From positions 1 through 61,238 of the forward strand of contig JBEAYS010000078.1 in the NCBI GenBank assembly GCA_041170505.1: a stretch of 61,238 bases of DNA, written 5' to 3'. The stretch is from Cyanobacteriota bacterium (GTDB taxonomy: Bacteria > Cyanobacteriota > Vampirovibrionia > LMEP-6097). Below, piece after piece: positions 199 to 61,238 of the stretch. A model generated the notes under the pieces. It was not told the DNA's origin. It ran no database searches and was given only the letters and a program-made list of their open reading frames with translations. The position numbers were made by a program, and so were the translations under genes. Numbering within the stretch: the first letter of the stretch is position 1; each line of letters begins with the position of its first letter.

Positions 199-235
199 AG
201 ACATTGTCTACGAATTATTCAAAATTCTAAATAAT
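199..235 (+). repeat. Family-2 intergenic repeat arm (AGACATTGTCTACGAATTAYNCAAAAWTCTARATAAT), solo copy upstream of fumC
   Basis: Sequence agacattgtctacgaattattcaaaattctaaataat. It matches the other copies at 1700, 1799, 7585, 7667, 47080, 47161, 54922, 60105 and 60203. Confidence 0.75.
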
Positions 236-289
236 ATCTCACTTTCCATCACCACTGCCTAGAGCTCAAAAAACTGTTAATCTAAAAAT

Positions 290-1953: not shown

Positions 1954-2080
1954 TTAAGGATCCACTGAAAAATGCGACTTCGTCGATTTTTCAACCCTGA
2001 GCCAAGAGAAAATCTTGGCTCAGGGAGTGAGTCCTTAATATTCTTGTTAGGCGGATTCCACCACAAAACCTCATTTCAAA
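1954..2080 (+). mobile_element. Family-1 MITE copy A (TTAA-flanked, 3' end degenerate), immediately downstream of tRNA-Gly
   Basis: ttaaggatccactgaaaaatgcgacttcgtcgatttttcaaccctgagccaaga-gaaaa-tcttggctcaggg... It has the same architecture as copies at 4428, 40600, 41597, 55090 and 61119. Confidence 0.8.
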
Positions 2081-3012: not shown

Positions 3013-4431
3013 ATGAATACAGAATTAGAGTTATTAATGCCAGGCGGTAGCTTGGATAAAATCAAATACGCGATTGCTTACGGAGCTGATGCGGTTTATG
3101 CAGGGGTCCCCAGATATAGTTTGAGGGCGCGCGAAAATGAGTTTTTTGATGGGGAGCTTGTTCAGCAGGCTGTGGATTTTGTGCACGCGCGGGGCAAAAA
3201 AATCTATCTCACTTGCAATATCTACGCGCATAATAACAAGATCAATGGTTTTATGTCGGCGATGGAAGAGATGATGTCTTTTAAGCCCGATGCTTTTATT
3301 ATGACTGATCCAGGGCTGATCGCTTTGACTAAGGAGAAATTCCCTGATGCGGTGATTCACTTGTCGACTCAAGCGAATAATACTAACTGGGCGCAGGCGA
3401 AGTTCTGGCGTGACTATGGCGTCAAGAGAGTGATTCTGGCGCGCGAATTGAACATCGATGAGATTCGCGAGATTCACGAAAACGTGCCTGATCTTGAGCT
3501 GGAGGCTTTTGTCCATGGCTCTATTTGCATGGCTTATTCTGGAAGATGCCTTTTGTCAAATTATTTGAGCTACCGTGATGCCAATCAAGGTACTTGCTCG
3601 CACACTTGTCGTTGGGGCTTCAAAGTCAATGTTAATGATAAACCCGGCGATGATGTGGTCACAGATTATATTCCGCTAGATGGCGATTTTTACTTGGAAG
3701 AGCGTGAGCGTCCTGGTGAGATGATGCCTGTTGATGAAGATGAGTACGGCACTTATATCATGAACTCAAAAGATCTCTGCGCGATCGATTACATGGCCCA
3801 ACTTCGAGATGCTGGAGTTATAAGTTTTAAAGTCGAGGGGCGCAACAAAACTGAATATTATGCTTCCTTGGTGGCGCGCGCTTATAGACGTGGTCTTGAT
3901 GCGATGGCTGACGGTAAACCTCTGCCAAAAGAGCTCAGAGACTGGATGCTAGCTGAGGTCAGCACTACTGCTAATCGTGGTTTTATCCCTGGATTTTATG
4001 CGCGCAACGCGCGAGCGGCGGCTCAAGAGCTGGAGCGTTCTCACTGCGTGCAGACTCATTTATATGCTTGTCGTGTGGTTAATTATGATCCCTCAACCCA
4101 AGTCGCTGAGCTGGAAGTAAAAAATCGTTTTGACAAGGGTGATACTCTTACTTTTATTACTCCAGATAGAGAGTTCGAGATGATCGTCCAAGAAGCTTAC
4201 TATAAGGGGCATCCAGAGGCTTTGGAGTTTTCTAGTCGTGCTTGGAATAATTCCAAAAAAGAATTTAACGCAAATCAGATAAAACCTACTGATCATGCTC
4301 ATGGTGGCGGAGAGAATGTTTTTGTAAAACTCAGTCAAGATTTGGGTTCTGACTGGTCTACAGCGATAGTACGCATGCCTTATAAAGAGGCTGTCAGCCT
4401 AAGACAAAGAACACCAGTAGCAGTATTTTAA
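3013..4431 (+). CDS. Peptidase U32 family protein (PrtC/YegQ/RlhA-like)
   Basis: 472-aa ORF with N-terminal ELLMPGGSLDKIKYAIAYGADAVY and central EAFVHGSICMAYSGRCLLSNY, typical of the U32 family. The stop codon TAA lies inside the TTAA flank of MITE copy B. Confidence 0.9.
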   Translation: MNTELELLMPGGSLDKIKYAIAYGADAVYAGVPRYSLRARENEFFDGELVQQAVDFVHARGKKIYLTCNIYAHNNKINGFMSAMEEMMSFKPDAFIMTDPGLIALTKEKFPDAVIHLSTQANNTNWAQAKFWRDYGVKRVILARELNIDEIREIHENVPDLELEAFVHGSICMAYSGRCLLSNYLSYRDANQGTCSHTCRWGFKVNVNDKPGDDVVTDYIPLDGDFYLEERERPGEMMPVDEDEYGTYIMNSKDLCAIDYMAQLRDAGVISFKVEGRNKTEYYASLVARAYRRGLDAMADGKPLPKELRDWMLAEVSTTANRGFIPGFYARNARAAAQELERSHCVQTHLYACRVVNYDPSTQVAELEVKNRFDKGDTLTFITPDREFEMIVQEAYYKGHPEALEFSSRAWNNSKKEFNANQIKPTDHAHGGGENVFVKLSQDLGSDWSTAIVRMPYKEAVSLRQRTPVAVF

Positions 4432-4566
4432 GGATCCACTGAAAAATGCGACTTCGTCGATTTTCCAACCCTGAGCCAAGAAGGGATCTTGGCTCAGGGA
4501 GTGGATCCTTAATATTTTTGTTAGGCGGATTCCGCATCAAAACTTCGTTTTTCAGCGAATCCTTAA
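4428..4566 (+). mobile_element. Family-1 MITE copy B (full length, ~139 bp including TTAA flanks)
   Basis: The ends TTAAGGATCCACTGAAAAATGCG and CGTTTTTCAGCGAATCCTTAA are imperfect terminal inverted repeats. Inside are a 13-bp perfect hairpin CCCTGAGCCAAGA/TCTTGGCTCAGGG and a nested 10-bp inverted repeat AAGGATCCAC/GTGGATCCTT. Confidence 0.85.
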
Positions 4567-4588: not shown

Positions 4589-6406
4589 GTGGCTCAACCA
4601 GTGAGTTGTTTCGTAAACTATAATATTAAGCGGATGCAATTTTCGTTTAGAGACAAGATTTTTAGTGATAAGTTTTTGGGCTTGGTGGTTTTTGCTTTTT
4701 TATTTTTGATATATGGGACTCATAGCTACCCGCTTTTTAGTCTTGATGAGGTGCGCTACGCCGAAACAGCGCGCGAAATGATAGAGAGAAACGATTATAT
4801 AAGCCCTTTTTGTAATTATGTTCTAAGACCAGAAAAACCAATATTTTTTTATTGGTTAGAAATTTTGGCTTTTAAAGTTTTGGGTTTTTCTGAATTATCT
4901 GCTCGCTTGCCCTCGGTTTTTATGGGCACTTTTACGGTGGCGATGGTTTTTTTGCTGGCGGAGTATTTTGGTTTTGGGTTGTTTGCTGGTCTTGTAACCC
5001 TTACTAGCATTGAGTTTGCGGTAGTGTCAAAACTATCAATCACCGACATGACTTTAAATGCTTTTATTACAGCTACTTTGATATGTCTCTTTTTTACTTA
5101 TGTTTTTTGGCGTGCTGAAGATTTAGCGCGCGCTGGTGTTTCGGCGAGCTCGGATGTTTCGGCGAGCGCTGGTGTTTCGGCGGGCGCTGAAGATTTAGCG
5201 CGCGCTGGAGATTCCGCGCGCGCGCAGGGATTGACAAAAGCGCGAAACTTTTTGTTTTTGGCGGGAGTGTTTAGTGGTCTTGGTTGTTTAGCCAAGGGTC
5301 CTGTTGCGCTTGCATTGCCGGGTTTAGTATTTTTGGTTTTTTTAGTAGTTCAGCTAAAATTCGTATGCTTCCTAAAAGCCTTTTGGCGAGAGCTTTTGCA
5401 GACCCTAGCGATTTTTTTGGTTTTGGTTGTGCCTTGGTTTTTGGCTGTGCATATGGCAACTGATGGCGAGTTTACTAGAAGATTTTTTTTCCAAGAGAAT
5501 ATAGATAGGTTTCTTGCTGTTAAGACTGGGCACTCAGCGCCTTGGTTTTATTATTTGCCGGTGTTTATGGTGGGTTTTATTCCCTGGATTTATTTTTTTC
5601 CGCAGACTTTGGGTTTTGTTTTTTCGGAGTTAAAATCTGGATCTAAAAATCCTAATTTGGGCGCTAGAAATGATTTATTAGTTTTTTGTTGTTTGTGGTT
5701 TGCTGTGATCTTTTTGTTTTTTAGTTTTGCTAAAACTAAGCTTACGACCTATATAATCGGGGTTTTTGCGCCAGCTAGTTTACTAGTCGGGGCATGGTTT
5801 TTTGGCTTAAGTGTTATAAAAACCAAAAAAATGGGAATAATATTAGGACAAGCACTTTTTTCTTTAAGCGGAATTTTAGTTTTATTCATTTGTAGTTTTT
5901 TTAAGGCCAAACTTTTGGAAGTGGATCCATTGGCTTTTGGACCACAAATTTTATTTACTTCAATTATGGTTTTGGTCTCTGGCGTCCTTGCAATCATATT
6001 GCTCATGCGCTTTTCCGTTCGCCACTCGTTTTTGTGTTTTGCGCTTGCTAATGCTCTAATCTTCGTTTATGTGAATGATAATTTTATAAAACCAATTTCG
6101 TTTTTTAGAGATTCTGGCACTCGCGAGTTTGTCCAAAAACTCAGTCCCGAAGATAGTTTGGTGAGTTATGGGATGCCACCAGAGCGATTTGAGTTTTATG
6201 GTAAGCGACAAGTTGTTCGCCTAAATGAAGGGCGTCTAAAGAAATATTTTAATGGCACTCTAAGCAAGTCCTCTAAAACAGGTTCTGGGGAAAAATATCT
6301 AGTCTTTAAGACAAAAGATTTAGATAAATTGGTCGCTATCAAAGGCTCTGATAGACTTGATTACGTGATTAAAACCAAGTTTTTTTCTGTGATTAGGTGT
6401 TTTTAA
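4589..6406 (+). CDS. ArnT/PMT_2-like (GT83-type) membrane glycosyltransferase; alternative start ATG at 4634
   Basis: Polytopic membrane ORF with N-terminal LDEVRYAETAREM...PEKPIFFYW, resembling the DExRYAE...KPP motif region of the ArnT/dolichyl-phosphate-mannose transferase family. Confidence 0.8.
   Translation: MAQPVSCFVNYNIKRMQFSFRDKIFSDKFLGLVVFAFLFLIYGTHSYPLFSLDEVRYAETAREMIERNDYISPFCNYVLRPEKPIFFYWLEILAFKVLGFSELSARLPSVFMGTFTVAMVFLLAEYFGFGLFAGLVTLTSIEFAVVSKLSITDMTLNAFITATLICLFFTYVFWRAEDLARAGVSASSDVSASAGVSAGAEDLARAGDSARAQGLTKARNFLFLAGVFSGLGCLAKGPVALALPGLVFLVFLVVQLKFVCFLKAFWRELLQTLAIFLVLVVPWFLAVHMATDGEFTRRFFFQENIDRFLAVKTGHSAPWFYYLPVFMVGFIPWIYFFPQTLGFVFSELKSGSKNPNLGARNDLLVFCCLWFAVIFLFFSFAKTKLTTYIIGVFAPASLLVGAWFFGLSVIKTKKMGIILGQALFSLSGILVLFICSFFKAKLLEVDPLAFGPQILFTSIMVLVSGVLAIILLMRFSVRHSFLCFALANALIFVYVNDNFIKPISFFRDSGTREFVQKLSPEDSLVSYGMPPERFEFYGKRQVVRLNEGRLKKYFNGTLSKSSKTGSGEKYLVFKTKDLDKLVAIKGSDRLDYVIKTKFFSVIRCF
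5114..5207 (+). repeat. GC-rich in-frame repeat block inside the GT83 gene
   Basis: The 23-bp direct repeat gctgaagatttagcgcgcgctgg occurs at 5114 and 5185. It brackets three 18-nt tandem units (..tgtttcggcgrgc..) encoding AGVSAS/SDVSAS/AGVSAG. Confidence 0.8.
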
Positions 6407-7584: not shown

Positions 7585-7685
7585 AGACATTGTCTACGAA
7601 TTACGCAAATTTTAAGATAAGTTCGGACTATTTACTTTTTACAAGGAGCTTATCTTGCTTTGTGCTTAATTCGTAGACAATGTCT
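7585..7685. repeat. Family-2 repeat, inverted pair (101-bp MITE-like unit) between divergent murG and the desaturase gene
   Basis: Perfect 19-bp inverted termini agacattgtctacgaatta (7585-7603) and taattcgtagacaatgtct (7667-7685). The desaturase ATG at 7680 lies inside the right arm. Confidence 0.8.
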
Positions 7686-38896: not shown

Positions 38897-39112
38897 TTGG
38901 GCTCACGTATAACAAAGAGCTTGATCTTATTGCTCTAAGAAGCTAACCTTATAACGGAGCTAGAAATGGCTCTGGGTTTTAATCGCCCTGTCACAAGCCG
39001 TCTCAGAGATACGTTTTTGCATGTCCAGAGCTTTCGGGCTTAAAGATTGCAGTAGTCATCCTTGTGACCGATTGATAAACTCCTGGTTACTTTTTATTCA
39101 AATTAAGTAACT

Positions 39113-39145
39113 AAAAATCTCTCCCTTTGGAGGGATTTTTGTTTT
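39113..39145. terminator. Putative bidirectional intrinsic terminator
   Basis: aaaaatctctcc-cttt-ggagggattttt forms a 12-bp stem (one G-U pair) with a 4-nt loop. A T-run follows on both strands. It sits between convergent transcription units. Confidence 0.5.
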
Positions 39146-39187
39146 AAAGGAGTTAATCAAGCACAGTGAGTAATATTTTCTTAGTAT

Positions 39188-39487
39188 TTATAACCTTTCG
39201 GTATAAAAATCTACTTTGATATTTTCAATGAATAATCTTTTATGCTTGTCATTTAAAGCATTAAATAAATCATCCTCGTGAGCCGTTCCAGTGTATTTGA
39301 TTTTTACATCCAAGTCAGAATTCTTTCTAGGCTGTCCAAAAATTCTACTACCAAAAAGCTGGATACCTTGGATATCAAAATCTAAGCCTTCAAAATGCAA
39401 CTCATTATTTAACTGTTTAATATGTGAATGAATTATGCTAAGTATTTCCATTTCAGTATAATCTGGCAATCCTAAAACGGTAAGCAT
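39188..39487 (-). CDS. Minimal Pol-beta-fold nucleotidyltransferase (MNT-like)
   Basis: 99-aa ORF with the GS-x10-DLDV pattern (LFGSRIFGQPRKNSDLDVKI), characteristic of minimal nucleotidyltransferases. Confidence 0.6.
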   Translation of the reverse strand: MLTVLGLPDYTEMEILSIIHSHIKQLNNELHFEGLDFDIQGIQLFGSRIFGQPRKNSDLDVKIKYTGTAHEDDLFNALNDKHKRLFIENIKVDFYTERL

Positions 39488-39524
39488 AGAAACTATTTTA
39501 GTCTATTGTAGGCATCTAAAACCC

Positions 39525-40127
39525 CTACCCAACATCTTCCAAATCCTTCAGCTTCTTACCATTGTACTGCCAGTATGCCGCTCCTTGGTAGGCACCGCTG
39601 GCGTTTAGCTTACCTTTCATCTCCTGTATCTTGTAAGTCAAGGGCGAAAGCTTCCAGATCTGCTCACCGTACTCTACTTCCCGCTCCCCGACTACCTTTG
39701 CTGTAATTGTCGCATCACTAATAAAAACAATTTCCGCACCGTCCTTTATCCCTTTTTTGTAAAAGCTAAATCGCACACCTTGCTCTCTGGCTTGCGTAAC
39801 CTCATCAAATTCTTGGTCTTTATTCATATCTTGTGGATAAATCACCTTACACTCAAAACACAATAAAAGCTGTCGCACCAAATCATAATCAAGAGCAAAC
39901 AGTTCACTATTGCCTACTCGATGCTTGTCAAAAATCTCTATCAAAAGCTTTTCTTTGGCTGTATAATCTTTTAGCTCGACTGCAAAAAATCTTTTTAGAC
40001 CTGAGACATTGTAATAACCATTCGCCTCAAGGAACCGCATTCTTTCTTGAAAATTATCGGTGCCGCTTTGACCGATTTTGATCAAGCCCGAAACAGCGGT
40101 AGTCATGATGTAAATAATTCCCTGCAT
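39525..40127 (-). CDS. GIY-YIG superfamily (T5orf172/MUG113-like) domain protein with a small C-terminal domain
   Basis: N-terminal GIIYIMTT...LIKIGQS...RMRFL...EKLLIEIFDKHRVGNSELF follows the T5orf172 pattern. The C-terminal ~90 aa are unassigned. Confidence 0.6.
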   Translation of the reverse strand: MQGIIYIMTTAVSGLIKIGQSGTDNFQERMRFLEANGYYNVSGLKRFFAVELKDYTAKEKLLIEIFDKHRVGNSELFALDYDLVRQLLLCFECKVIYPQDMNKDQEFDEVTQAREQGVRFSFYKKGIKDGAEIVFISDATITAKVVGEREVEYGEQIWKLSPLTYKIQEMKGKLNASGAYQGAAYWQYNGKKLKDLEDVG

Positions 40128-40135
40128 AATAATTA

Positions 40136-40187
40136 TTAAGGATACACTGAAAAATTCGACTTCGTCGATTTTGCAACGAATCCTTAA
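40136..40187 (+). mobile_element. Family-1 MITE, internally deleted 52-bp relic
   Basis: ttaaggatacactgaaaaattcgacttcgtcgattttgcaa-cgaatccttaa keeps both ends but lacks the central hairpin. A further isolated end, cagtggatccttaa, lies at 40360-40373 in inverted orientation. Confidence 0.7.
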
Positions 40188-40192
40188 AGCAC

Positions 40193-40225
40193 GGGCTGGC
40201 TAATTGTAATAATGTAACAATTAGA
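40193..40225. repeat. Family-3 palindrome (CTAATTGTAAYAATGTAACAATTAG), copy 1
   Basis: gggctggctaattgtaataatgtaacaattaga. It recurs at 40271-40301, 53323-53347 and 54977-55006. Confidence 0.7.
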
Positions 40226-40270
40226 GTGAGCCTTTATGAGGGTTTCTGGCGGTTTTACTAGGGTTTTGAG

Positions 40271-40301
40271 CCGGGCTAATTGTAATAATGTAACAATTAG
40301 A
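40271..40301. repeat. Family-3 palindrome, copy 2 (direct repeat of copy 1)
   Basis: ccgggctaattgtaataatgtaacaattaga. Confidence 0.7.
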
Positions 40302-40369
40302 AAGTGCTGGTTTAGCTGAGGGCGCACGATGTTTTACTTAAACACTATATTTACTCAGCCAGTGGATCC

Positions 40370-41332
40370 TTAATAACCAGCAAGTTCTTTTTCTAGCTCT
40401 TCGATGCTTGGTAAGCTGGATTTTAGATGTTCGGGAAATGCTTTAGAGAGCTGGTATTCAGAGATCCCGATGGGCTTACCGATATCTTGCAGTGCGTATT
40501 CTGCGACTATTTTGTTTTTGTTCTTGCAAATAATAATCCCAATAGAAGGCTGATCCTCACTGGTTTTGAGCGTCTTGTCGATAGCTGATAGATAAAAAAT
40601 TAAAGATCCACTGAAAAATGCGACTTCGTCGATTTTCCAACCCTGAGCCAAGAAGGGATCTTGGCTCAGGGAGTGGATCCTTAATATTTTTGTTAAGCGG
40701 ATTCCGCCTCAAAACTTCGTTTTTCAGCGAATCCTTAATTTACCTGCGTATTCTGGCTTAAAATCACTTAGCTTCAGCTCGATCACGATATAGGCATGCA
40801 AGCGAGTATGATAAAAAAGCAAATCTATATAAAAATCTTGATTATCTATTTCTAAGTGATACTGCCGCCCAATAAAAGCAAACCCAGCTCCTAATTCTAA
40901 TAAGAACTTTGTAATATGCTCTACTAGAGCGTTCTCAATGTCTCTTTCTTGGGCTTCCTTGCCAAGGCTCAGAAAATCAAAGTTATAAGGGTCCTTGAGT
41001 ATTTGATGAGCTAAATCGGATAGGGGCTGAGTTAGAGTAGTCTTAAAATTATGAGTTTTGTCGGATAGGGATTGTCTCTGGTAAAGTTTGCTCTCGATTT
41101 GGTGGACCATTGCGTTGCGTGACCAGCCGTTTTTGATGGTCTCATTGATATAAAATTCTCTTTCTTTTTTATCTTTGATTTTGGCTAGAAGGGTTATATT
41201 GTGATACCAGCTAATTTGTGCAAGTACCTCTTGCACAAAGCTTAAATCCTTATAATGTTCGGCAAAAGCCCGCATGTACTTTAGGTTTCTTGTAGAGAAC
41301 TCTTTTAATGAGTGACTACCGCCGAAACGCAC
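40370..41332 (-). pseudogene. DUF1016 (YhcG-like PD-(D/E)xK nuclease) paralog, 5'-truncated and interrupted by MITE copy C
   Basis: ORFs 40724-41332 and 40370-40651 are the two halves. Removing 40600-40738 while keeping one TTAA restores ...PEYAGKLNFYLSAIDKTLKTSEDQPSIGIIIC. The first ~70 codons are missing relative to the intact paralog. Confidence 0.8.
40600..40738 (+). mobile_element. Family-1 MITE copy C, inside DUF1016 paralog
   Basis: ttaaagatccactg...cagcgaatccttaa, flanked by TTAA on both sides. Confidence 0.85.
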
Positions 41333-41366
41333 TCGGGAAGCGCTTTTTGCTGGGGTTTTGTGTGGG
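41316..41366 (-). promoter_or_regulatory. Conserved DUF1016-cassette 5' leader, copy 1 of 4
   Basis: ctaccgccgaaacgcactcgggaagcgctttttgctggggttttgtgtggg. Homologous blocks lie at 42488-42529, 43916-43967 and 45031-45093, each just upstream (on the minus strand) of a cassette start. Confidence 0.55.
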
Positions 41367-41381
41367 TTGATTGGTTAGACC

Positions 41382-42477
41382 TCATTTCCATGCTTTTAGC
41401 TCTTTTAGAATAAAAGCTTCTAACTCTTCTTTCTGAGGTAGTTTCACCAAGTATTTTGCTACAAACAATTGTTTATCCATGCCGGCTGTAGCGTATTCGA
41501 CAAGTTTTTGTCCTTTTTCGGTGCATAGTAAAATACCGATGGCGGGATTGTCATCGGCTCGCTTCACTTCGGCGTTGTAATAGGCGACGTACGTGTTTAA
41601 GGATCCACTGAAAAATGCGTCTTCGACGATTTTTCAACCCTGAGCCAAGAATGAATCTTGGCTCAGGGAGTGAATCCTTAATATTTTTGTTAAGCGGATT
41701 CCGCCTCAAAACTTCGTTTTTCAGCGAATCCTTTACTGAGAAAGATACTCATGCTTAAAAGCGTCTACTTTTAGTTCTATAACCACATGGCATTTTAGTA
41801 CACGATGATAAAAAACCAAGTCTATAAAAAAATATTCATCATCGATCAAAATTCGTTTCTGGCGATACTCAAAACAAAAACCCAAACCAAGCTCACTAAT
41901 AAAATCCTGCAAATGATTTAATAGACCTGTTTCTAGATCTTTTTCTTCAATTAATTTATCAGTTTTTAATCCTAAAAAATCAAACAAAAAAACAGATTTA
42001 ATCGCATCTAACTGACCAAGTCCCTTTTATCGCAGAACTCTCATAAAAATTGCGTTTTAGGGGGTCTTGTATAGTTAATAATTGTTCTATGTGGGTATAG
42101 GATAGGTTGTTTACAATTTTTTCTGCAGGTACACACAAATTAGGATTAAAAAGTGGGGTTGATGACCCCACTTTTGCGAAATCTGGGAAATAGGCAGAAA
42201 CATAGGATTTAATCTGAGGGTAGCATTTATAGAATTCTTTAAATCGATACATCGCTCTGCGATCGATCCCTTTTATGTGCTTGAATCGCTGAGCTAAAGC
42301 TGAGAAGAGCTTCTCACCATAAACAGCACGATCTTCCCCTTTTTGTTCAAATTCAACTATATAAAAACCGATCAACCAATTCCTAATCGTTAGTGATATA
42401 TTGACTGCTTTAAAAGCTTGTTGTTGCAGTCGTTCATGTGTTTGCTCAATAAAAGATACTAACGACTCGAAATTCAT
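41382..42477 (-). pseudogene. DUF1016 (YhcG-like nuclease) paralog with a frameshift/stop near 41990 and MITE copy D insertion
   Basis: ORFs 41998-42477, 41733-41987 and 41382-41567 are colinear with the intact paralog. Removing 41597-41735 while keeping one TTAA restores ...FKHEYLSQLNTYVAYYNAEVKRADDNPAIGILLC. Confidence 0.8.
41597..41735 (+). mobile_element. Family-1 MITE copy D, inside DUF1016 paralog
   Basis: ttaaggatccactgaaaaatgcgtcttcgacg...cagcgaatccttta. The right flank is TTTA rather than TTAA. Confidence 0.85.
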
Positions 42478-42540
42478 AGCGTAATTCTACCGCCGAAACG
42501 CACTAGGGAAGGGATTTTTGCGCTTAACATCTTGTCACGA

Positions 42541-43695
42541 TTACTTTTTATTGACTTGCAAAGATTTTTGTCTAAACAGATCCAAGTATTCTTTTAGTTC
42601 AAATATTCTATTTCTACTGCCGCCAGTTTTCTCTTGAAAAATTCCTAGCGCCAAAAATTTCTTAGCAATAGCACTTGCTGTTGGGAAACTTACTTGAATT
42701 AAATCTTGGATCTCATTTATAGTAACAACCGGTTTCGAAAATAATTTTTGTAATAGATCCAAGCTACTACCTGCTCTCTTGCCCATATTTTTTGTAATGA
42801 TATTTTTGTATTTTTCTTTTAGCTTCAGAATAGCTAAAAAGATCTTCTTAGAATCGTCCGTGGTTAGAATCATACCTTCTAAAAAAAACATAACCCAATG
42901 CTCTAGATTGTTTTGGGTTCGTACATAAGTTAAAGCGTCATAGTAATCTTGCCTATATTCTTCGAAATATGATGATAGATATAGGGCTGGTTTTTTTAAT
43001 AAGCCAAAATTGATTAAATACAAAATTATTAGTAACCTACCAGTTCTTCCATTACCATCTAAAAACGGATGTATGGTTTCAAACTGATAGTGTGTCACGG
43101 CTGCTTTAATTAAATGAGGGGTTTTATCAAGTTCAGAGTGCCAAAATTTTTCTAGATCACTCAATAAATCTGGTAAATCTCCTGGATGTGGTGGTACAAA
43201 GAAAGCACTATTTACCGTTGCACCGCCAATCCAATTTTGAGATTTTCTAATTTGACCTGGTAATTTTGTTTTACCGCAAACCCCGGCAAGGAGTTTTTTA
43301 TGAGCACCTTTTATTAATCTCATAGAGAGAGGGATATTGTTCAGTTCTTCGACAGACCAATTAAGTGCTTCAATGTAATTTAAAACCTCGTTTCTATCAT
43401 CTCTCTGCTCTAAAGGGATATCTTCTTCTTGAATAAATAGTTCATCGATTTCAGTTTTAGTACCTTCAATTTTTGAGGAGCTTGAAGCTTCTTTTGCAAT
43501 ATGCATTTTAACAAAGAAGTCTATGTCAGGTATTAACTCGGCATAAGCATTTAATTCACCAAGCTTCAGCATAGTTTTTTCCAAGAGTTGATTTATATCT
43601 TTATTGTGGAAATCAAAATCCAAATCCTTAAGCAGTGTTGGGTAAAAACTTTTATAACCTCCTTGTTTTTTATAAATTCCTGATTTAAACTTCAT
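42541..43695 (-). CDS. Fic-family protein (AMPylase-type) with N-terminal inhibitory-helix motif and C-terminal wHTH-like tail
   Basis: Catalytic motif HPFLDGNGRTGR (HxFx[D/E]GNGRxxR). SSKIEG matches the [S/T]xxxE[G/N] autoinhibition motif. Confidence 0.92.
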   Translation of the reverse strand: MKFKSGIYKKQGGYKSFYPTLLKDLDFDFHNKDINQLLEKTMLKLGELNAYAELIPDIDFFVKMHIAKEASSSSKIEGTKTEIDELFIQEEDIPLEQRDDRNEVLNYIEALNWSVEELNNIPLSMRLIKGAHKKLLAGVCGKTKLPGQIRKSQNWIGGATVNSAFFVPPHPGDLPDLLSDLEKFWHSELDKTPHLIKAAVTHYQFETIHPFLDGNGRTGRLLIILYLINFGLLKKPALYLSSYFEEYRQDYYDALTYVRTQNNLEHWVMFFLEGMILTTDDSKKIFLAILKLKEKYKNIITKNMGKRAGSSLDLLQKLFSKPVVTINEIQDLIQVSFPTASAIAKKFLALGIFQEKTGGSRNRIFELKEYLDLFRQKSLQVNKK

Positions 43696-43822
43696 GTTTT
43701 AACCTTTAATAAGCATCTTCTTTATTAAGAGTTTAGCTTCTAACCTTTAATAAGTCAAATTCTTATTAAAAGTTATTTTATCGCTTATTTGTTGGATATC
43801 CAGAAAACTACCGAGAGTACAA

Positions 43823-43866
43823 TGAAAAACGAAGTTTTGAAGCGAAGCCTTAAGCAGAATAAGATT
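43823..43866 (-). mobile_element. Family-1 MITE end fragment
   Basis: tgaaaaacgaagttttgaagcgaagccttaagcagaataagatt resembles the reverse complement of the MITE 3' end. It abuts a remnant of a DUF1016 gene start (43866-43905), where ATG has decayed to GCG. Confidence 0.55.
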
Positions 43867-43974
43867 AGATTTATCATTGATACTCACCGCAGCTTGAATA
43901 TCATTCTACCGCCCAAACACACTGGGGAAGGGATTTTTGCGCTTGATGCTGGGGGTTTGCTGTGGGGCGGGCTC

Positions 43975-45015
43975 TCACTGCTCTTGTGTGTGCAATCTAT
44001 GACGCGCTATTTCAAGAGATTGATGAAGCTTGGCTTGTAGGATTTCTTTTGGCGGTAATTGCGTTAGATATTCAGCTAATCTAATATTGCTCTTATCGAG
44101 CCCAAGAAGCTCTATGTGCTCTGCGTTTTTTCCGGCACACAGAATTAGACCAATAGGAGAATTTTCACCTTCGACCTGTTCATATTTTTCTAGATAGCGT
44201 AAGTAAAGCTCCATCTGCCCTTTGTAACCAGCCTCAAAATCACCAAGCTTAAGGTCTATGACCACTAGCGATTTTAGTCTGCGATGATAAAAGAGTAGGT
44301 CGATATAGTAATCACGGTTATCAATACTGATGCGCTTTTGGCGAGCTAAGAATGCAAAATCTTGTCCAAGCTCGGTGATGAATTTTTGTAATTCTACCAG
44401 GATAGCTGATTCTAAATCCTTTTCTGAATACTCACTTGTCAATCCCAAAAAATCCAAAAAATAAGGATCTCTAAAAACAAGATCTGGTGATAGTTTATCT
44501 TCGTCTTGTAACTGCTTAAGATCATTTTTTATAAGCTCTTCAGATTTTTTTGCGATGGCGGTTCTTTCGTAAAGCATTGAATTGATACGCTCACGCAGTT
44601 GCCGAACGCTCCAATTTTCAAGCTGACACATATGAGCATAAAAATCTCTTTTTAGCGGGTCTTGAAGTGGCATTAACGCTATTATATGAGTCCAGCTCAA
44701 TTGTCGTATCAGTGATACGACAATTTGTTCATTAGGAAAAACCTCGGCAAACTGAGTCATTCTTCTAAGGTTTTTCTCAGAAAAGGTTTTACCATAATCA
44801 TGGGTTAATTGACTAGCAAGCTTAATGATTGTTTGTTTACCATATTCAGCCCTATTCTCCTTAAGTATTTCCGTATAGATGCGCTTACCTATTTGCCAAT
44901 ACAGCAGTGTCATTGTCGAATTGATAGTTTTTGCTACAGACTTGCGTGCAGAATCAATTAGTTTTCGTAAATCTTCAAGCAGAATAATATTGGATTCATC
45001 ATTGATGCTCACCAT
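43975..45015 (-). CDS. DUF1016 / YhcG-like PD-(D/E)xK nuclease family protein (the only intact paralog)
   Basis: 346-aa ORF with YWQIGKRI, WSVRQLRERI, YYIDLLFYHRRLKSLVVIDLKLGDF...GQMELYLRYL and SPIGLILCAGKN, typical of the family. Confidence 0.85.
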   Translation of the reverse strand: MVSINDESNIILLEDLRKLIDSARKSVAKTINSTMTLLYWQIGKRIYTEILKENRAEYGKQTIIKLASQLTHDYGKTFSEKNLRRMTQFAEVFPNEQIVVSLIRQLSWTHIIALMPLQDPLKRDFYAHMCQLENWSVRQLRERINSMLYERTAIAKKSEELIKNDLKQLQDEDKLSPDLVFRDPYFLDFLGLTSEYSEKDLESAILVELQKFITELGQDFAFLARQKRISIDNRDYYIDLLFYHRRLKSLVVIDLKLGDFEAGYKGQMELYLRYLEKYEQVEGENSPIGLILCAGKNAEHIELLGLDKSNIRLAEYLTQLPPKEILQAKLHQSLEIARHRLHTQEQ

Positions 45016-45174
45016 GGCTTGGACATCATTCTACCTACTAAACGCACTCTGGAAGCGAGTTTTGCGTTTAATACTGGGAGTCTTGTTGTTGGGTGGAATT
45101 ATCTAGGTTTTTGTGGAAACGGTAAGTGCGGCCCCACAGGGAGCCCGCCGAAAGGGTAAGTGCGCTCCTAGAGC

Positions 45175-46128
45175 TTAAAAACTCAAAACCCAAGGAATAT
45201 AAACTAAAGCGATTAGAGTGCTGATCAGCACAGTGATTGAGGCGGTGTCAGTGTCAAGCCCAAGCTCGGTGGCTATCGATATGGTGTTAGCGCCGATCGG
45301 CACTATCGACATCAAAAAAATTATCTCTAGAGCTCTTGAGGAATAAAAATGCAAGTAAGTAGAATCTAGATACATAAAACCCACTGCTAGAGCGGGAAAC
45401 ACAGCTAGCTTAGCAATCAAGCTCAGAGAGATAAACTTAAAATCAAAATAGGCTTTTTTGATTTTTGCAAGCCCTAGCCCTATCATAAGCATCCCCAAAA
45501 ACGAATACGCTCCAATAAATTTATCTGCCATATCAAGCAAGCTCTGAATCACAGGATCCAAGAGGGTTCCAGGCTGGTAATAATATTTATAAGCCAGGTT
45601 CGCTATTACAGCAAGCATACTAGTATAAATCGTGGGCAGTCTGAGAGTCTTTTGCAGAGCGTCTTTTAGGTGATACTTGCCGCGCGCCGCAATCAAAAAA
45701 GCCGTAAAGCTCTCATGTAGAGCTAATCCTAAGACTAGTAACACCGTTATGCCAAGAGCTTCCGGTCCATAAATCGCAAACACAAGTGGCAATCCAAAAT
45801 ATCCTACATTTGCTAAACTCGCTGATAGAGACAGTAAGCCGGCTTGCTCGCGAGACCCCAAAAATATTTTGCCGATATAAAAAAAGCTTATCGCCATAAA
45901 AGTCCCCGCCACCAAAAAATAAAAAGGATAACTAAAAGTCTGGGCACTTAAATCCGTTAGGAAAATCCCCTTAAAAGTTACTACCGGCACTACAATATAA
46001 AGCAAGAGCGGAGCGATGCTTTCGGCTTGGACTTTTAGCTTTTTGCCTGCAATCCAGCCAAAAATAATCATTATATATAAAGGAATTAGTTTTATTAATA
46101 GGTCGCTAAATAGGTTAGGTGGAGCCAT
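45175..46128 (-). CDS. AEC (auxin efflux carrier) family membrane transporter
   Basis: 317-aa polytopic ORF, about 10 hydrophobic segments. The N-terminus LIKLIPLYIMIIFGWIAGKKL is typical of the family. Confidence 0.72.
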   Translation of the reverse strand: MAPPNLFSDLLIKLIPLYIMIIFGWIAGKKLKVQAESIAPLLLYIVVPVVTFKGIFLTDLSAQTFSYPFYFLVAGTFMAISFFYIGKIFLGSREQAGLLSLSASLANVGYFGLPLVFAIYGPEALGITVLLVLGLALHESFTAFLIAARGKYHLKDALQKTLRLPTIYTSMLAVIANLAYKYYYQPGTLLDPVIQSLLDMADKFIGAYSFLGMLMIGLGLAKIKKAYFDFKFISLSLIAKLAVFPALAVGFMYLDSTYLHFYSSRALEIIFLMSIVPIGANTISIATELGLDTDTASITVLISTLIALVYIPWVLSF

Positions 46129-54921: not shown

Positions 54922-54960
54922 GTAGACATTGTCTACGAATTACTCAAAAATCAAGATAAT
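54922..54960 (+). repeat. Family-2 repeat arm, solo copy upstream of rpmH
   Basis: gtagacattgtctacgaattactcaaaaatcaagataat. The core GTAGACA-T-TGTCTAC is a perfect 7-1-7 palindrome. Confidence 0.75.
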
Positions 54961-54976
54961 TAATTCTTGACTCTTG

Positions 54977-55089: not shown

Positions 55090-55228
55090 TTAAGGATTCG
55101 CTGAAAAACGAAGTTTTGAGGCGGATTCCGCCTAACAAAGATATTAAGGATCCACTCCCTGAGCCAAGAAAAAATCTTGGCTCAGGGTTGAAAAAGCGAC
55201 GAAGTCGCATTTTTCAGTGGATACTTAA
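55090..55228 (-). mobile_element. Family-1 MITE copy E (reverse orientation, full length)
   Basis: ttaaggattcgctgaaaaacgaagttttgaggcggattccgcc...ccctgagccaagaaaaaatcttggctcaggg...cagtggatacttaa. Confidence 0.85.
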
Positions 55229-60104: not shown

Positions 60105-60230
60105 GCAGACATTGTCTACGAATTATTCGTTTGTCTAAATAATCCACCTCCAATTGGAATATAGTTACAATTGGGACCTTTATATTAGGTAATTATTTTG
60201 ATTTTTGCGTAATTCGTAGACAATGTCTAC
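60105..60230. repeat. Family-2 repeat, inverted pair (126-bp MITE-like unit) between convergent genes
   Basis: Perfect 19-bp inverted termini agacattgtctacgaatta (60107-60125) and taattcgtagacaatgtct (60210-60228). The stop codon of ORF 60227-61066 lies at the right end. Confidence 0.8.
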
Positions 60231-61118: not shown

Positions 61119-61238
61119 TTAAGGATCCACTGAAAAATGCGACTTCGTCGATTTTTCAACCCTGAGCCAAGAGAAAATCTTGGCTCAGGGAGTGGATCCT
61201 TAATATTTTTGTTAGGCGGATTCCGCCTCAAAACTTCG
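61119..61238 (+). mobile_element. Family-1 MITE copy F (truncated by the window end)
   Basis: ttaaggatccactgaaaaatgcgacttcgtcgatttttcaaccctgagccaagagaaaatcttggctcaggg... Confidence 0.85.

What the first reader, a model, noticed from the sequence alone, without database searches (positions are those of the whole stretch)
40370..42477. The same MITE sits at the homologous Leu-Asn codon pair of two divergent DUF1016 paralogs; in-silico excision restores both ORFs
Seen: deleting 40600-40738 but keeping one TTAA gives ...PEYAGK-LN-FYLSAIDKTLKTSEDQPSIGIIIC. Deleting 41597-41735 likewise gives ...FKHEYLSQ-LN-TYVAYYNAEVKRADDNPAIGILLC. Both restore the conserved family block. The two host genes are highly divergent around the site, while the two MITE copies are nearly identical. 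The intact paralog (43975-45015) has ...GQMELYLRYL at this position, with no TTAA. Inference: these are independent recent hits on the same TTA-AAY site (target preference beyond TTAA), or MITE-mediated gene conversion, rather than duplication of an already interrupted gene.
Basis: seen in the sequence. Interest (0 to 1): 0.65.

Follow-up and report, generated by a model that had tools for sequence, protein, structure and literature searches.

The report
Same small transposon hit two nuclease paralogs
A 131-bp non-coding mobile element that always lands in the sequence TTAA inserted twice, independently, at the same conserved Leu-Asn codon pair of two very different copies of a putative defence nuclease gene; this is ordinary gene decay in a defence island, with a coincidence of about 1-4%.

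Summary
Two copies of one MITE (131-bp core, TTAA duplication, about 19-bp terminal inverted repeats, 12-bp hairpin) sit at 40600-40738 and 41597-41735. Both lie at the same nucleotide column and codon phase (TTA|A), and in the same orientation, in two YhcG/DUF1016 genes that share only 52% nt identity. The MITEs are 94% identical.

A related metagenome contig (L001, about 96% identical) carries both genes side by side with both sites empty: one TTAA each, reading Leu-Asn. The two MITEs belong to different subfamilies, each closer to copies elsewhere than to each other. So these are two independent, recent transpositions. They are not duplication of an interrupted gene, and not copying between paralogs.

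Thirty-four distinct insertion sites show no target consensus beyond TTAA. Leu-Asn is a conserved family motif that an AT-rich genome writes as TTA-AAY, so it gives a shared TTAA. Chance of a same-site hit is about 1-4%.

Both genes are also damaged elsewhere, so excision restores only the local frame. The array lies in a fast-changing defence island of a Caenarcanales-like (Melainabacteria) genome and holds half of the window's MITE-related ends. This is a new MITE family, but a known kind of event.

The parts
40600..40738 (+). MITE copy m1 in paralog A: TTAA + 131-bp core + TTAA. Belongs to the subfamily of the copy at 4428.
   Evidence: Empty site GGTAAA-TTAA-ATTTTTATC in L001 and L002.
41597..41735 (+). 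MITE copy m2 in paralog B: TTAA + core + TTTA (mutated duplication). Belongs to the subfamily with the compensatory T23/A29 change.
   Evidence: Empty site TCTCAG-TTAA-ACACGTACG in L001.
40370..40599 (-). Paralog A (YhcG/DUF1016), 3' part downstream of the MITE.
40739..41318 (-). Paralog A, 5' part. Lacks about 75 N-terminal codons; the break abuts the conserved upstream element.
   Evidence: The full-length ortholog P0001 in L001 is 338 aa.
41382..41596 (-). Paralog B, 3' part downstream of the MITE.
41736..42477 (-). Paralog B, middle and N-terminal parts. An out-of-frame deletion of about 40 codons lies near 41990-42010.
43975..45015 (-). Paralog C, intact YhcG/DUF1016 (346 aa). Has ATG GAG at the homologous position, with no TTAA.
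   Evidence: Matches PADLOC PDC-S02.
43747..43887 (-). N-terminal DUF1016 fragment D. It follows C's 5' end, then breaks at a MITE terminal-repeat-like end (43835-43853).
42541..43695 (-). Fic-domain gene (SoFic-like) between B and fragment D.
40136..40187 (+). 52-bp internally deleted mini-copy of the MITE, flanked by TTAA.
40360..40373 (-). Isolated left terminal repeat (CAGTGGATCCTTAA on the + strand) at the TTAA that overlaps A's stop codon.
4428..4566 (+). Intergenic MITE copy, the closest relative of m1 in the window (3 differences).
55090..55228 (-). Intergenic MITE copy.
61119..61238 (+). MITE copy that runs off the end of the window.
1954..2076 (+). MITE copy with a diverged right end, immediately after tRNA-Gly (1873-1948).

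Best explanation
A non-autonomous transposon (MITE) that inserts only into TTAA and duplicates it landed twice, in separate events from different source copies. Both times it hit the TTAA formed by the Leu-Asn codons (TTA-AAY) of the conserved G-K/Q-L-N-x-Y motif in the PD-(D/E)XK nuclease domain, in two divergent YhcG/DUF1016 genes.

The site is shared because the protein motif is conserved and a 38% G+C genome writes it as TTA-AAY. It is one of only two TTAA positions common to both genes. Each insertion adds 135 bp and brings a stop codon into the reading frame, so both genes are knocked out. Both also carry other lesions.

The array sits in a dispensable, fast-changing part of a defence island, where insertions are tolerated and accumulate.

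Shown: element structure, TTAA duplication, empty sites, subfamily membership, gene divergence, and lack of an extended target motif. Inferred: that tolerance of insertions explains the clustering, and that the same-site hit is motif-aided chance.
For: - Empty sites: L001 (JGI 3300057121) matches the window at 95.5-99.1% and carries B's 3' half, the intergenic element and a full-length A. It has a single TTAA at each site. L002 also has the A site empty.
- Filled sites occur only in near-identical strains: L060 (99.99%) and L062 (99%).
- Divergence: A vs B is 52% nt and 41% aa identical, against 94% for the MITEs.
- Subfamilies: m1 differs by 3 positions from window copy 4428 and from L041_6006. 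m2 is closest to L024_5117 (5 differences) and carries the T23/A29 pair found in 4 copies. m1 and m2 differ at 8 positions and share no derived change.
- Target: across 34 distinct sites, TTAA is on the left in 31 and on the right in 23, and the rest are 1-2-nt variants. There is no flank consensus.
- Motif: Leu-Asn is present at this position in 63 of the 99 A-type homologs in which the motif was located, and in all aligned B-type homologs.
- TTAA counts: 8 in full-length A and 10 in B, with 2 shared columns.
- Clustering: 5 of 10 MITE-related ends in the window lie within 40128-45100, binomial P about 0.002 given that region's share of TTAA sites. All other copies are intergenic.
- Context: YhcG matches PADLOC PDC-S02, Fic matches SoFic, and neighbouring genes are DrmD-like, type IIG restriction-modification, DruE-like and UvrD-like. 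DUF1016 genes are enriched next to restriction-modification loci (PMC9881135).
Against: - Under uniform use of TTAA sites, the same-site coincidence is still unlikely. It is 2/(8x10) = 2.5% given one hit in each gene, about 1.9% for 5 hits among the 47 TTAA sites of the array, and half of either figure if the shared orientation is counted.
- The transposase was not found, so its true target rules are unknown.
- Only 34 sites were available, so a weak structural or extended preference would be missed.
- The empty alleles come from short metagenome contigs of about 96% identical relatives, so the order and timing of the two insertions are not resolved.
Confidence: 0.8

Rival explanations
1. The site is a true hot spot. 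Either the unknown transposase prefers something beyond TTAA that both sites share (local DNA shape, transcription or replication context), or selection favours disruption at exactly this point of the nuclease domain. For example, the truncated product might be harmless or useful while other truncations are toxic.
For: The chance estimate is only about 1-4%. Both copies have the same orientation. Three DUF1016 copies in the array are associated with MITE ends.
Against: There is no flank consensus in 34 sites. The two sites share only TTAA plus A. None of the 54 other MITE-bearing loci contains a DUF1016 gene. The third DUF1016 hit is at a different position, about codon 13. Both genes carry other inactivating lesions, so there is no sign that a particular truncated product is preserved.
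Confidence: 0.12
2. The MITE in one paralog was copied into the other by ectopic recombination or gene conversion between the paralogs.
For: The paralogs are only about 1 kb apart. Segment swapping does occur in this locus: 99%-identical strains carry an unrelated 255-bp in-frame segment inside B.
Against: m1 and m2 belong to different subfamilies, and each is closer to copies elsewhere. B's flanks are identical to the empty B allele up to the TTAA. Flanks at 46% identity offer no homology to start recombination.
Confidence: 0.04
3. A single ancestral insertion was followed by gene duplication, with the MITE kept similar by selection or homogenisation.
For: The position, codon phase and orientation are the same in both genes.
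Against: Both sites are empty in a relative about 96% identical that already has the divergent A and B side by side. The genes share 52% nt identity against 94% for the inserts. A and B have their nearest homologs in different clades: Vampirovibrionia/Margulisiibacteriota-type for A and Bacteroidota-type short forms for B.
Confidence: 0.01

Closest known systems
Bacterial MITEs in general (e.g. Correia elements of Neisseria, Nezha of cyanobacteria, MITEAba12)
   Same: Short and non-coding, with terminal inverted repeats, a target-site duplication, internal hairpins and many copies. Mostly intergenic and mobilised in trans. Occasionally disrupts genes.
   Different: Its sequence family appears undescribed. 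There was no Rfam hit, and among species-representative genomes it was found only in a Candidatus Caenarcanales MAG. It uses a strict 4-bp palindromic TTAA target rather than TA or longer duplications. The named examples are recalled from memory and from the reviews listed; they were not compared by sequence.
TTAA-targeting transposons (eukaryotic piggyBac) and IS5- or IS630-type insertion sequences that use YTAR or TA targets
   Same: Insertion at TTAA, with one TTAA present on each side of the element.
   Different: No transposase was found in the window or the fetched loci, so family assignment is open. The data cannot tell a 4-bp TTAA duplication from a TA duplication with an A...T element end. 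These family target rules are recalled, not tested.
Rickettsia palindromic elements (in-frame coding MITEs)
   Same: The net insertion is a multiple of three (135 bp = 45 codons), and one frame of the element is stop-free.
   Different: In the phase and orientation used in both genes, a stop codon follows within 0-4 codons. The open frame is kept in only 16 of 29 copies. The insertions therefore truncate the proteins rather than extend them.
YhcG/DUF1016 PD-(D/E)XK nucleases (PADLOC candidate defence family PDC-S02)
   Same: The host genes match both Pfam domains and the PADLOC models. They sit in a defence island, as this family typically does next to restriction-modification genes (PMC9881135).
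   Different: Here there is a tandem array of divergent copies: one intact, two broken by MITEs plus other lesions, and one stub.

Membership tests
MITE (non-autonomous DNA transposon) | Short length with no coding capacity for a transposase | tested here: met
   131-bp core, 139 bp with both TTAAs. The only stop-free frame is 45 codons long and is kept in 16 of 29 copies.
MITE (non-autonomous DNA transposon) | Terminal inverted repeats | tested here: met
   TTAAGGATCCACTGAAAAA against TTAAGGATTCGCTGAAAAA. 14 matches in the window against 0.24 expected.
MITE (non-autonomous DNA transposon) | Target-site duplication shown by comparing filled and empty sites | tested here: met
   L001 and L002 have one TTAA where the window has TTAA-core-TTAA, at both gene sites. 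34 sites are flanked by TTAA or 1-2-nt variants.
MITE (non-autonomous DNA transposon) | Multiple dispersed copies in unrelated contexts | tested here: met
   About 7 copies in the window, 4 loci in one MAG and 50 metagenome contigs.
MITE (non-autonomous DNA transposon) | A related autonomous element with matching ends | tested here: inconclusive
   No transposase lies near any isolated terminal repeat in the fetched loci or in the window. Collection scans were capped, so absence is not shown.
YhcG/DUF1016 nuclease (host genes) | A DUF1016_N domain plus a YhcG_C PD-(D/E)XK domain above Pfam cut-offs, continuous across the restored junction | tested here: met
   Restored A: YhcG_C 2-157/157 at 221 bits, and DUF1016_N 62-137. 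Restored B: YhcG_C 10-152/157 at 164 bits, with the N-terminal part matching DUF1016_N at 79 bits. C matches both domains.
YhcG/DUF1016 nuclease (host genes) | Nuclease activity or a defence phenotype | not testable with these tools
   Only sequence matches are available (PADLOC PDC-S02 is a candidate family).
In-frame coding MITE (RPE-like) | The element is translated through as part of the host protein | tested here: not met
   A's frame reads ...AGKLRIR then a stop. B's reads ...LSQ then a stop.
piggyBac-like, IS5-like or IS630-like element | A cognate transposase of that family with matching terminal repeats | not testable with these tools
   No transposase was recovered. Only the TTAA target is known.

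The most novel reading that the evidence does not exclude
The MITE belongs to a bacterial TTAA-specific cut-and-paste system that excises seamlessly, as piggyBac does. Its repeated insertion at the Leu-Asn TTAA of YhcG nucleases would then be a reversible off-switch for costly or toxic defence nucleases, or a true site preference of an undescribed transposase. Under this reading the empty alleles could partly reflect precise excision.
Probability: 0.07. Interest if true: 0.65.

Novelty: new member of a known kind. Interest (0 to 1): 0.3.

Why it matters
- It is a clean, fully documented case of parallel insertion, with filled and empty alleles for both sites on one contig. A conserved protein motif plus codon bias creates a shared transposon target in paralogs that are otherwise unalignable at the DNA level.
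- It defines a previously undescribed TTAA-specific MITE family in non-photosynthetic relatives of cyanobacteria (Caenarcanales).
- It shows MITEs taking part in the erosion and rearrangement of a defence island, through gene knock-outs, truncations and a 21.5-kb indel that ends in a MITE.
- It does not reveal a new mechanism.

Tried and rejected
- **Extended target motif.** Position counts for 10 nt either side of 34 distinct sites show nothing consistent or palindromic. The only oddity is 0 of 34 G at position -1, with no mirror-image signal on the other side.
- **Hot spot in other DUF1016 genes.** tblastn of A, B and C against the 54 other MITE-bearing loci gave no hit.
- **Autonomous partner.** I scanned for terminal repeats across all loci and inspected ORFs next to isolated ends. 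Pfam found only housekeeping or unknown proteins. The window has no transposase.
- **Known RNA family.** Rfam at E<=1 over 39000-46000 gave only a sub-threshold Phe-leader hit elsewhere.
- **MITE on viral contigs.** None found.
- **In-frame coding insertion (RPE-like).** Rejected because a stop codon follows immediately in both genes. Read-through ORFs at other copies look like upstream extensions of neighbouring genes.
- **Intermediate haplotype (one site filled, one empty).** Exact-protein look-ups of the two truncated products found only near-identical strains with both sites filled. The search with restored B found no ortholog above 87% identity.
- **Literature.** No paper was found on a bacterial TTAA-specific MITE. 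DUF1016 appears only as a neighbour of restriction-modification genes.
- **Promoter scan of the conserved upstream element.** No sigma-70-type consensus hit.

Full report
**What is there**

All genes of the region are on the minus strand.
- Gene A runs from 40370 to about 41318.
- Gene B runs from 41382 to 42477.
- A Fic gene lies at 42541-43695.
- A 46-codon N-terminal DUF1016 stub (D) lies at 43747-43887.
- An intact 346-aa paralog (C) lies at 43975-45015.

A, B and C are YhcG/DUF1016 PD-(D/E)XK nucleases by Pfam. C matches the PADLOC candidate defence family PDC-S02, and the Fic gene matches SoFic.

A 139-bp unit lies at 40600-40738 in A and at 41597-41735 in B. The two copies match at 131 of 139 positions.

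**The element**

It is a MITE with these features:
- a 131-bp core;
- terminal inverted repeats TTAAGGATCCACTGAAAAA and TTAAGGATTCGCTGAAAAA, with 14 matches in the window against 0.24 expected;
- a perfect 12-bp-stem hairpin, plus smaller hairpins;
- a DNA fold energy of -41 kcal/mol, z-score -10.

Further copies lie at 4428-4566, 55090-55228 (minus strand), 61119 to the window end, and 1954-2076 just after tRNA-Gly. There is also a 52-bp mini-copy at 40136-40187.

Among species-representative genomes, the hairpin pattern was found only in a MAG titled Candidatus Caenarcanales bacterium, which is in Melainabacteria, class Vampirovibriophyceae. It was also found in 50 metagenome contigs and in no viral contig. 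There is no Rfam match. No transposase was found in the window or near isolated ends in the fetched loci.

**Checking the observation**

- Removing each unit while keeping one TTAA (a net 135 bp) restores the frame. A then reads ...FKPEYAGK-LI-FYLSAIDKTLK... and B reads ...FKHEYLSQ-LN-TYVAYYNAEVK....
- Restored A covers YhcG_C positions 2-157 of 157 (221 bits). Restored B covers positions 10-152 of 157 (164 bits).
- In a codon alignment the two TTAAs occupy the same nucleotide column in the same phase. C has ATG GAG there.

1. A now reads Leu-Ile, because one flank base changed. The empty alleles read TTA AAT, which is Leu-Asn.
2. B's right-hand duplication is now TTTA.
3. Neither gene is made whole by excision. 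A has lost about 75 N-terminal codons. B has an out-of-frame deletion of about 40 codons relative to its closest homologs.

**Empty sites**

The restored A protein retrieved two near-identical uninterrupted orthologs (95-96% aa).

Contig L001 (JGI 3300057121, 1501 bp) aligns to the window at 95.5-99.1%. It contains the 3' half of B, the intergenic element and a full-length A, without either MITE. The B site reads TCTCAG-TTAA-ACACGTACG and the A site reads GGTAAA-TTAA-ATTTTTATC. Contig L002 (ENA ERZ17175165) also has the A site empty.

This proves that TTAA is the target and is duplicated. A TA duplication with A...T element ends would look the same. It also proves that both insertions are far younger than the split between A and B. 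Strains 99-99.99% identical to the window (L060, L062, L063) have the insertions.

**Independent events or copying**

- A and B share 52% nt and 41% aa identity, and 46% nt within 20 codons either side of the site. The inserts are 94% identical.
- Their nearest database homologs differ. A's are Vampirovibrionia/Margulisiibacteriota-type full-length proteins. B's are short forms best matched in Bacteroidota.
- Among 37 full-length copies, m1 groups with window copy 4428 and with L041_6006 (3 differences each), sharing C37, G55 and G57.
- m2 groups with L024_5117 and carries the compensatory T23/A29 pair seen in 4 copies.
- m1 and m2 differ at 8 positions and share no derived base.
- B's flanks are identical to the empty B allele right up to the TTAA.

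Duplication after one insertion is therefore refuted. Conversion from one paralog to the other is very unlikely.

**Is the same-site hit more than chance?**

Thirty-four distinct insertion sites all have TTAA or a 1-2-nt variant of it. No flank consensus appears. The two gene sites share only TTAA plus one A.

None of the other 54 MITE-bearing loci contains a DUF1016 gene.

Leu-Asn is the commonest residue pair here. It is in 63 of the 99 A-type hits in which the motif was located, and in all aligned B-type homologs. In a 38% G+C genome it is naturally written TTA-AAY.

Full-length A has 8 TTAAs and B has 10. Only two columns are shared: Phe-Lys (TTT AAG) and Leu-Asn. That gives three estimates:
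- 2/80 = 2.5% for a same-site hit, given one insertion in each gene;
- about 1.9% for 5 hits among the 47 TTAAs of the array;
- half of either figure if the shared orientation is counted.

This is a modest coincidence, found by a reader who was looking for oddities. It is not strong evidence for an extra layer of specificity.

**Why this locus**

Five of the ten MITE-related ends in the window lie in 40128-45100 (P about 0.002). These are the two full copies, the mini-copy, an isolated terminal repeat at the TTAA of A's stop codon (40360-40373), and the terminal-repeat-like end where stub D breaks off. All other copies are intergenic, between housekeeping genes.

The array is the edge of a defence island. 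The island holds Mrr-like, DEDDh, DrmD-like SNF2, type IIG restriction-modification, a 2113-aa DruE-like protein, a UvrD-like helicase, an NTase and a T5orf172 gene. The 99%-identical strain L062 lacks 21.5 kb of it (18806-40136), and the junction falls inside a truncated MITE.

The simplest reading, which is an inference, is that these genes are dispensable. Insertions therefore persist here and are followed by deletions.

**Effect on the genes**

The 135-bp insertion preserves the downstream frame. However, the element brings a stop codon into the frame used...AGKLRIR then stop in A, and ...LSQ then stop in B. Both proteins end just after the catalytic E-x-K strand. This is not an RPE-like coding insertion.

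**Verdict**

The 'preference beyond TTAA' and 'gene conversion' options are not supported.

This is a new MITE family behaving as known MITEs do, in a decaying tandem array of candidate defence nucleases.

Noticed in passing
window 43747-43887, with the terminal-repeat-like end at 43835-43853: A third DUF1016 copy survives only as a 5' stub. It follows paralog C's first ~13 codons and then runs straight into a MITE right-end repeat (TTAAGGCTTCGCT). This suggests a MITE hit followed by deletion of the rest of the gene.
   Followed up: partly
window 18806-40136, compared with L062 4719-4786: A 99%-identical strain (NCBI GCA_964856935.1) lacks this 21.5-kb stretch of defence genes: Mrr-like, DEDDh, DrmD-like SNF2, type IIG restriction-modification, a 2113-aa DruE-like helicase, UvrD, an NTase and T5orf172. 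In that strain the junction is a truncated MITE; the window has a 52-bp mini-MITE at the same place.
   Followed up: partly
window 42072-42305, compared with L062 2662-2916 and L063 99-353: Inside B's DUF1016_N domain, strains that are otherwise 99% identical carry a completely unrelated in-frame 255-bp segment in place of the window's 234 bp. The swap is bounded by the conserved AVYGEKLF and IQDPLKR motifs, so it looks like a module exchange between alleles.
   Followed up: partly
window 41313-41381, 42484-42540, 43903-43974 and 45028-45100: A conserved ~45-nt element (GCAAAAA.C.CTTC...AG.G.GTTT.G..GGTAGAAT) precedes every DUF1016 copy. A's 5' deletion begins exactly at its GGTAG end. L002 has A truncated within about 10 nt of the same point but joined to different DNA. 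The element is absent upstream of the 82%-identical ortholog in L057. It could be a promoter or a recombination site; the simple sigma-70 scan does not hit it.
   Followed up: partly
window 40360-40373: An isolated MITE left terminal repeat sits at the TTAA that overlaps A's stop codon. In L001 and L002 the sequence after the same TTAA instead resembles the MITE's right half (GCGCATTCCGCCTCAAAAC). This second TTAA of gene A was therefore also used by MITE-related elements.
   Followed up: partly
window 199-243, 1698-1841, 7585-7684, 54924-54968 and 60107-60227: A second, unrelated short repeat family is built around the palindromic core GACATTGTCTACGAATTA and occurs in both orientations in intergenic regions.
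   Followed up: no
MITE copies in the window and in loci L003-L056: Among copies, the loop of the 12-bp hairpin occurs in both orientations (e.g. AAGGGAT and ATCCCTT), and a small stem shows an A-T to T-A compensatory swap (T23/A29) in 4 copies. One frame of the element is stop-free in 16 of 29 copies, and no other frame ever is. The 139-bp unit looks composite: an 85-bp TTAA-bounded part with perfect GGATCCACT/AGTGGATCC ends, plus a 54-bp right part.
   Followed up: partly
window 5101-5224: An 18-nt tandem repeat, about 7 units of TG(T/G)TTTCGGCG(A/G)GC(T/G)C-like sequence, lies inside the ORF 4589-6406. That ORF has a PMT_2 glycosyltransferase-like domain.
   Followed up: no
window 40195-40300: A perfect palindrome, CTAATTGTTACATTATTACAATTAG, occurs twice about 80 bp apart downstream of gene A. 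The 99%-identical strain L062 has only one copy.
   Followed up: no
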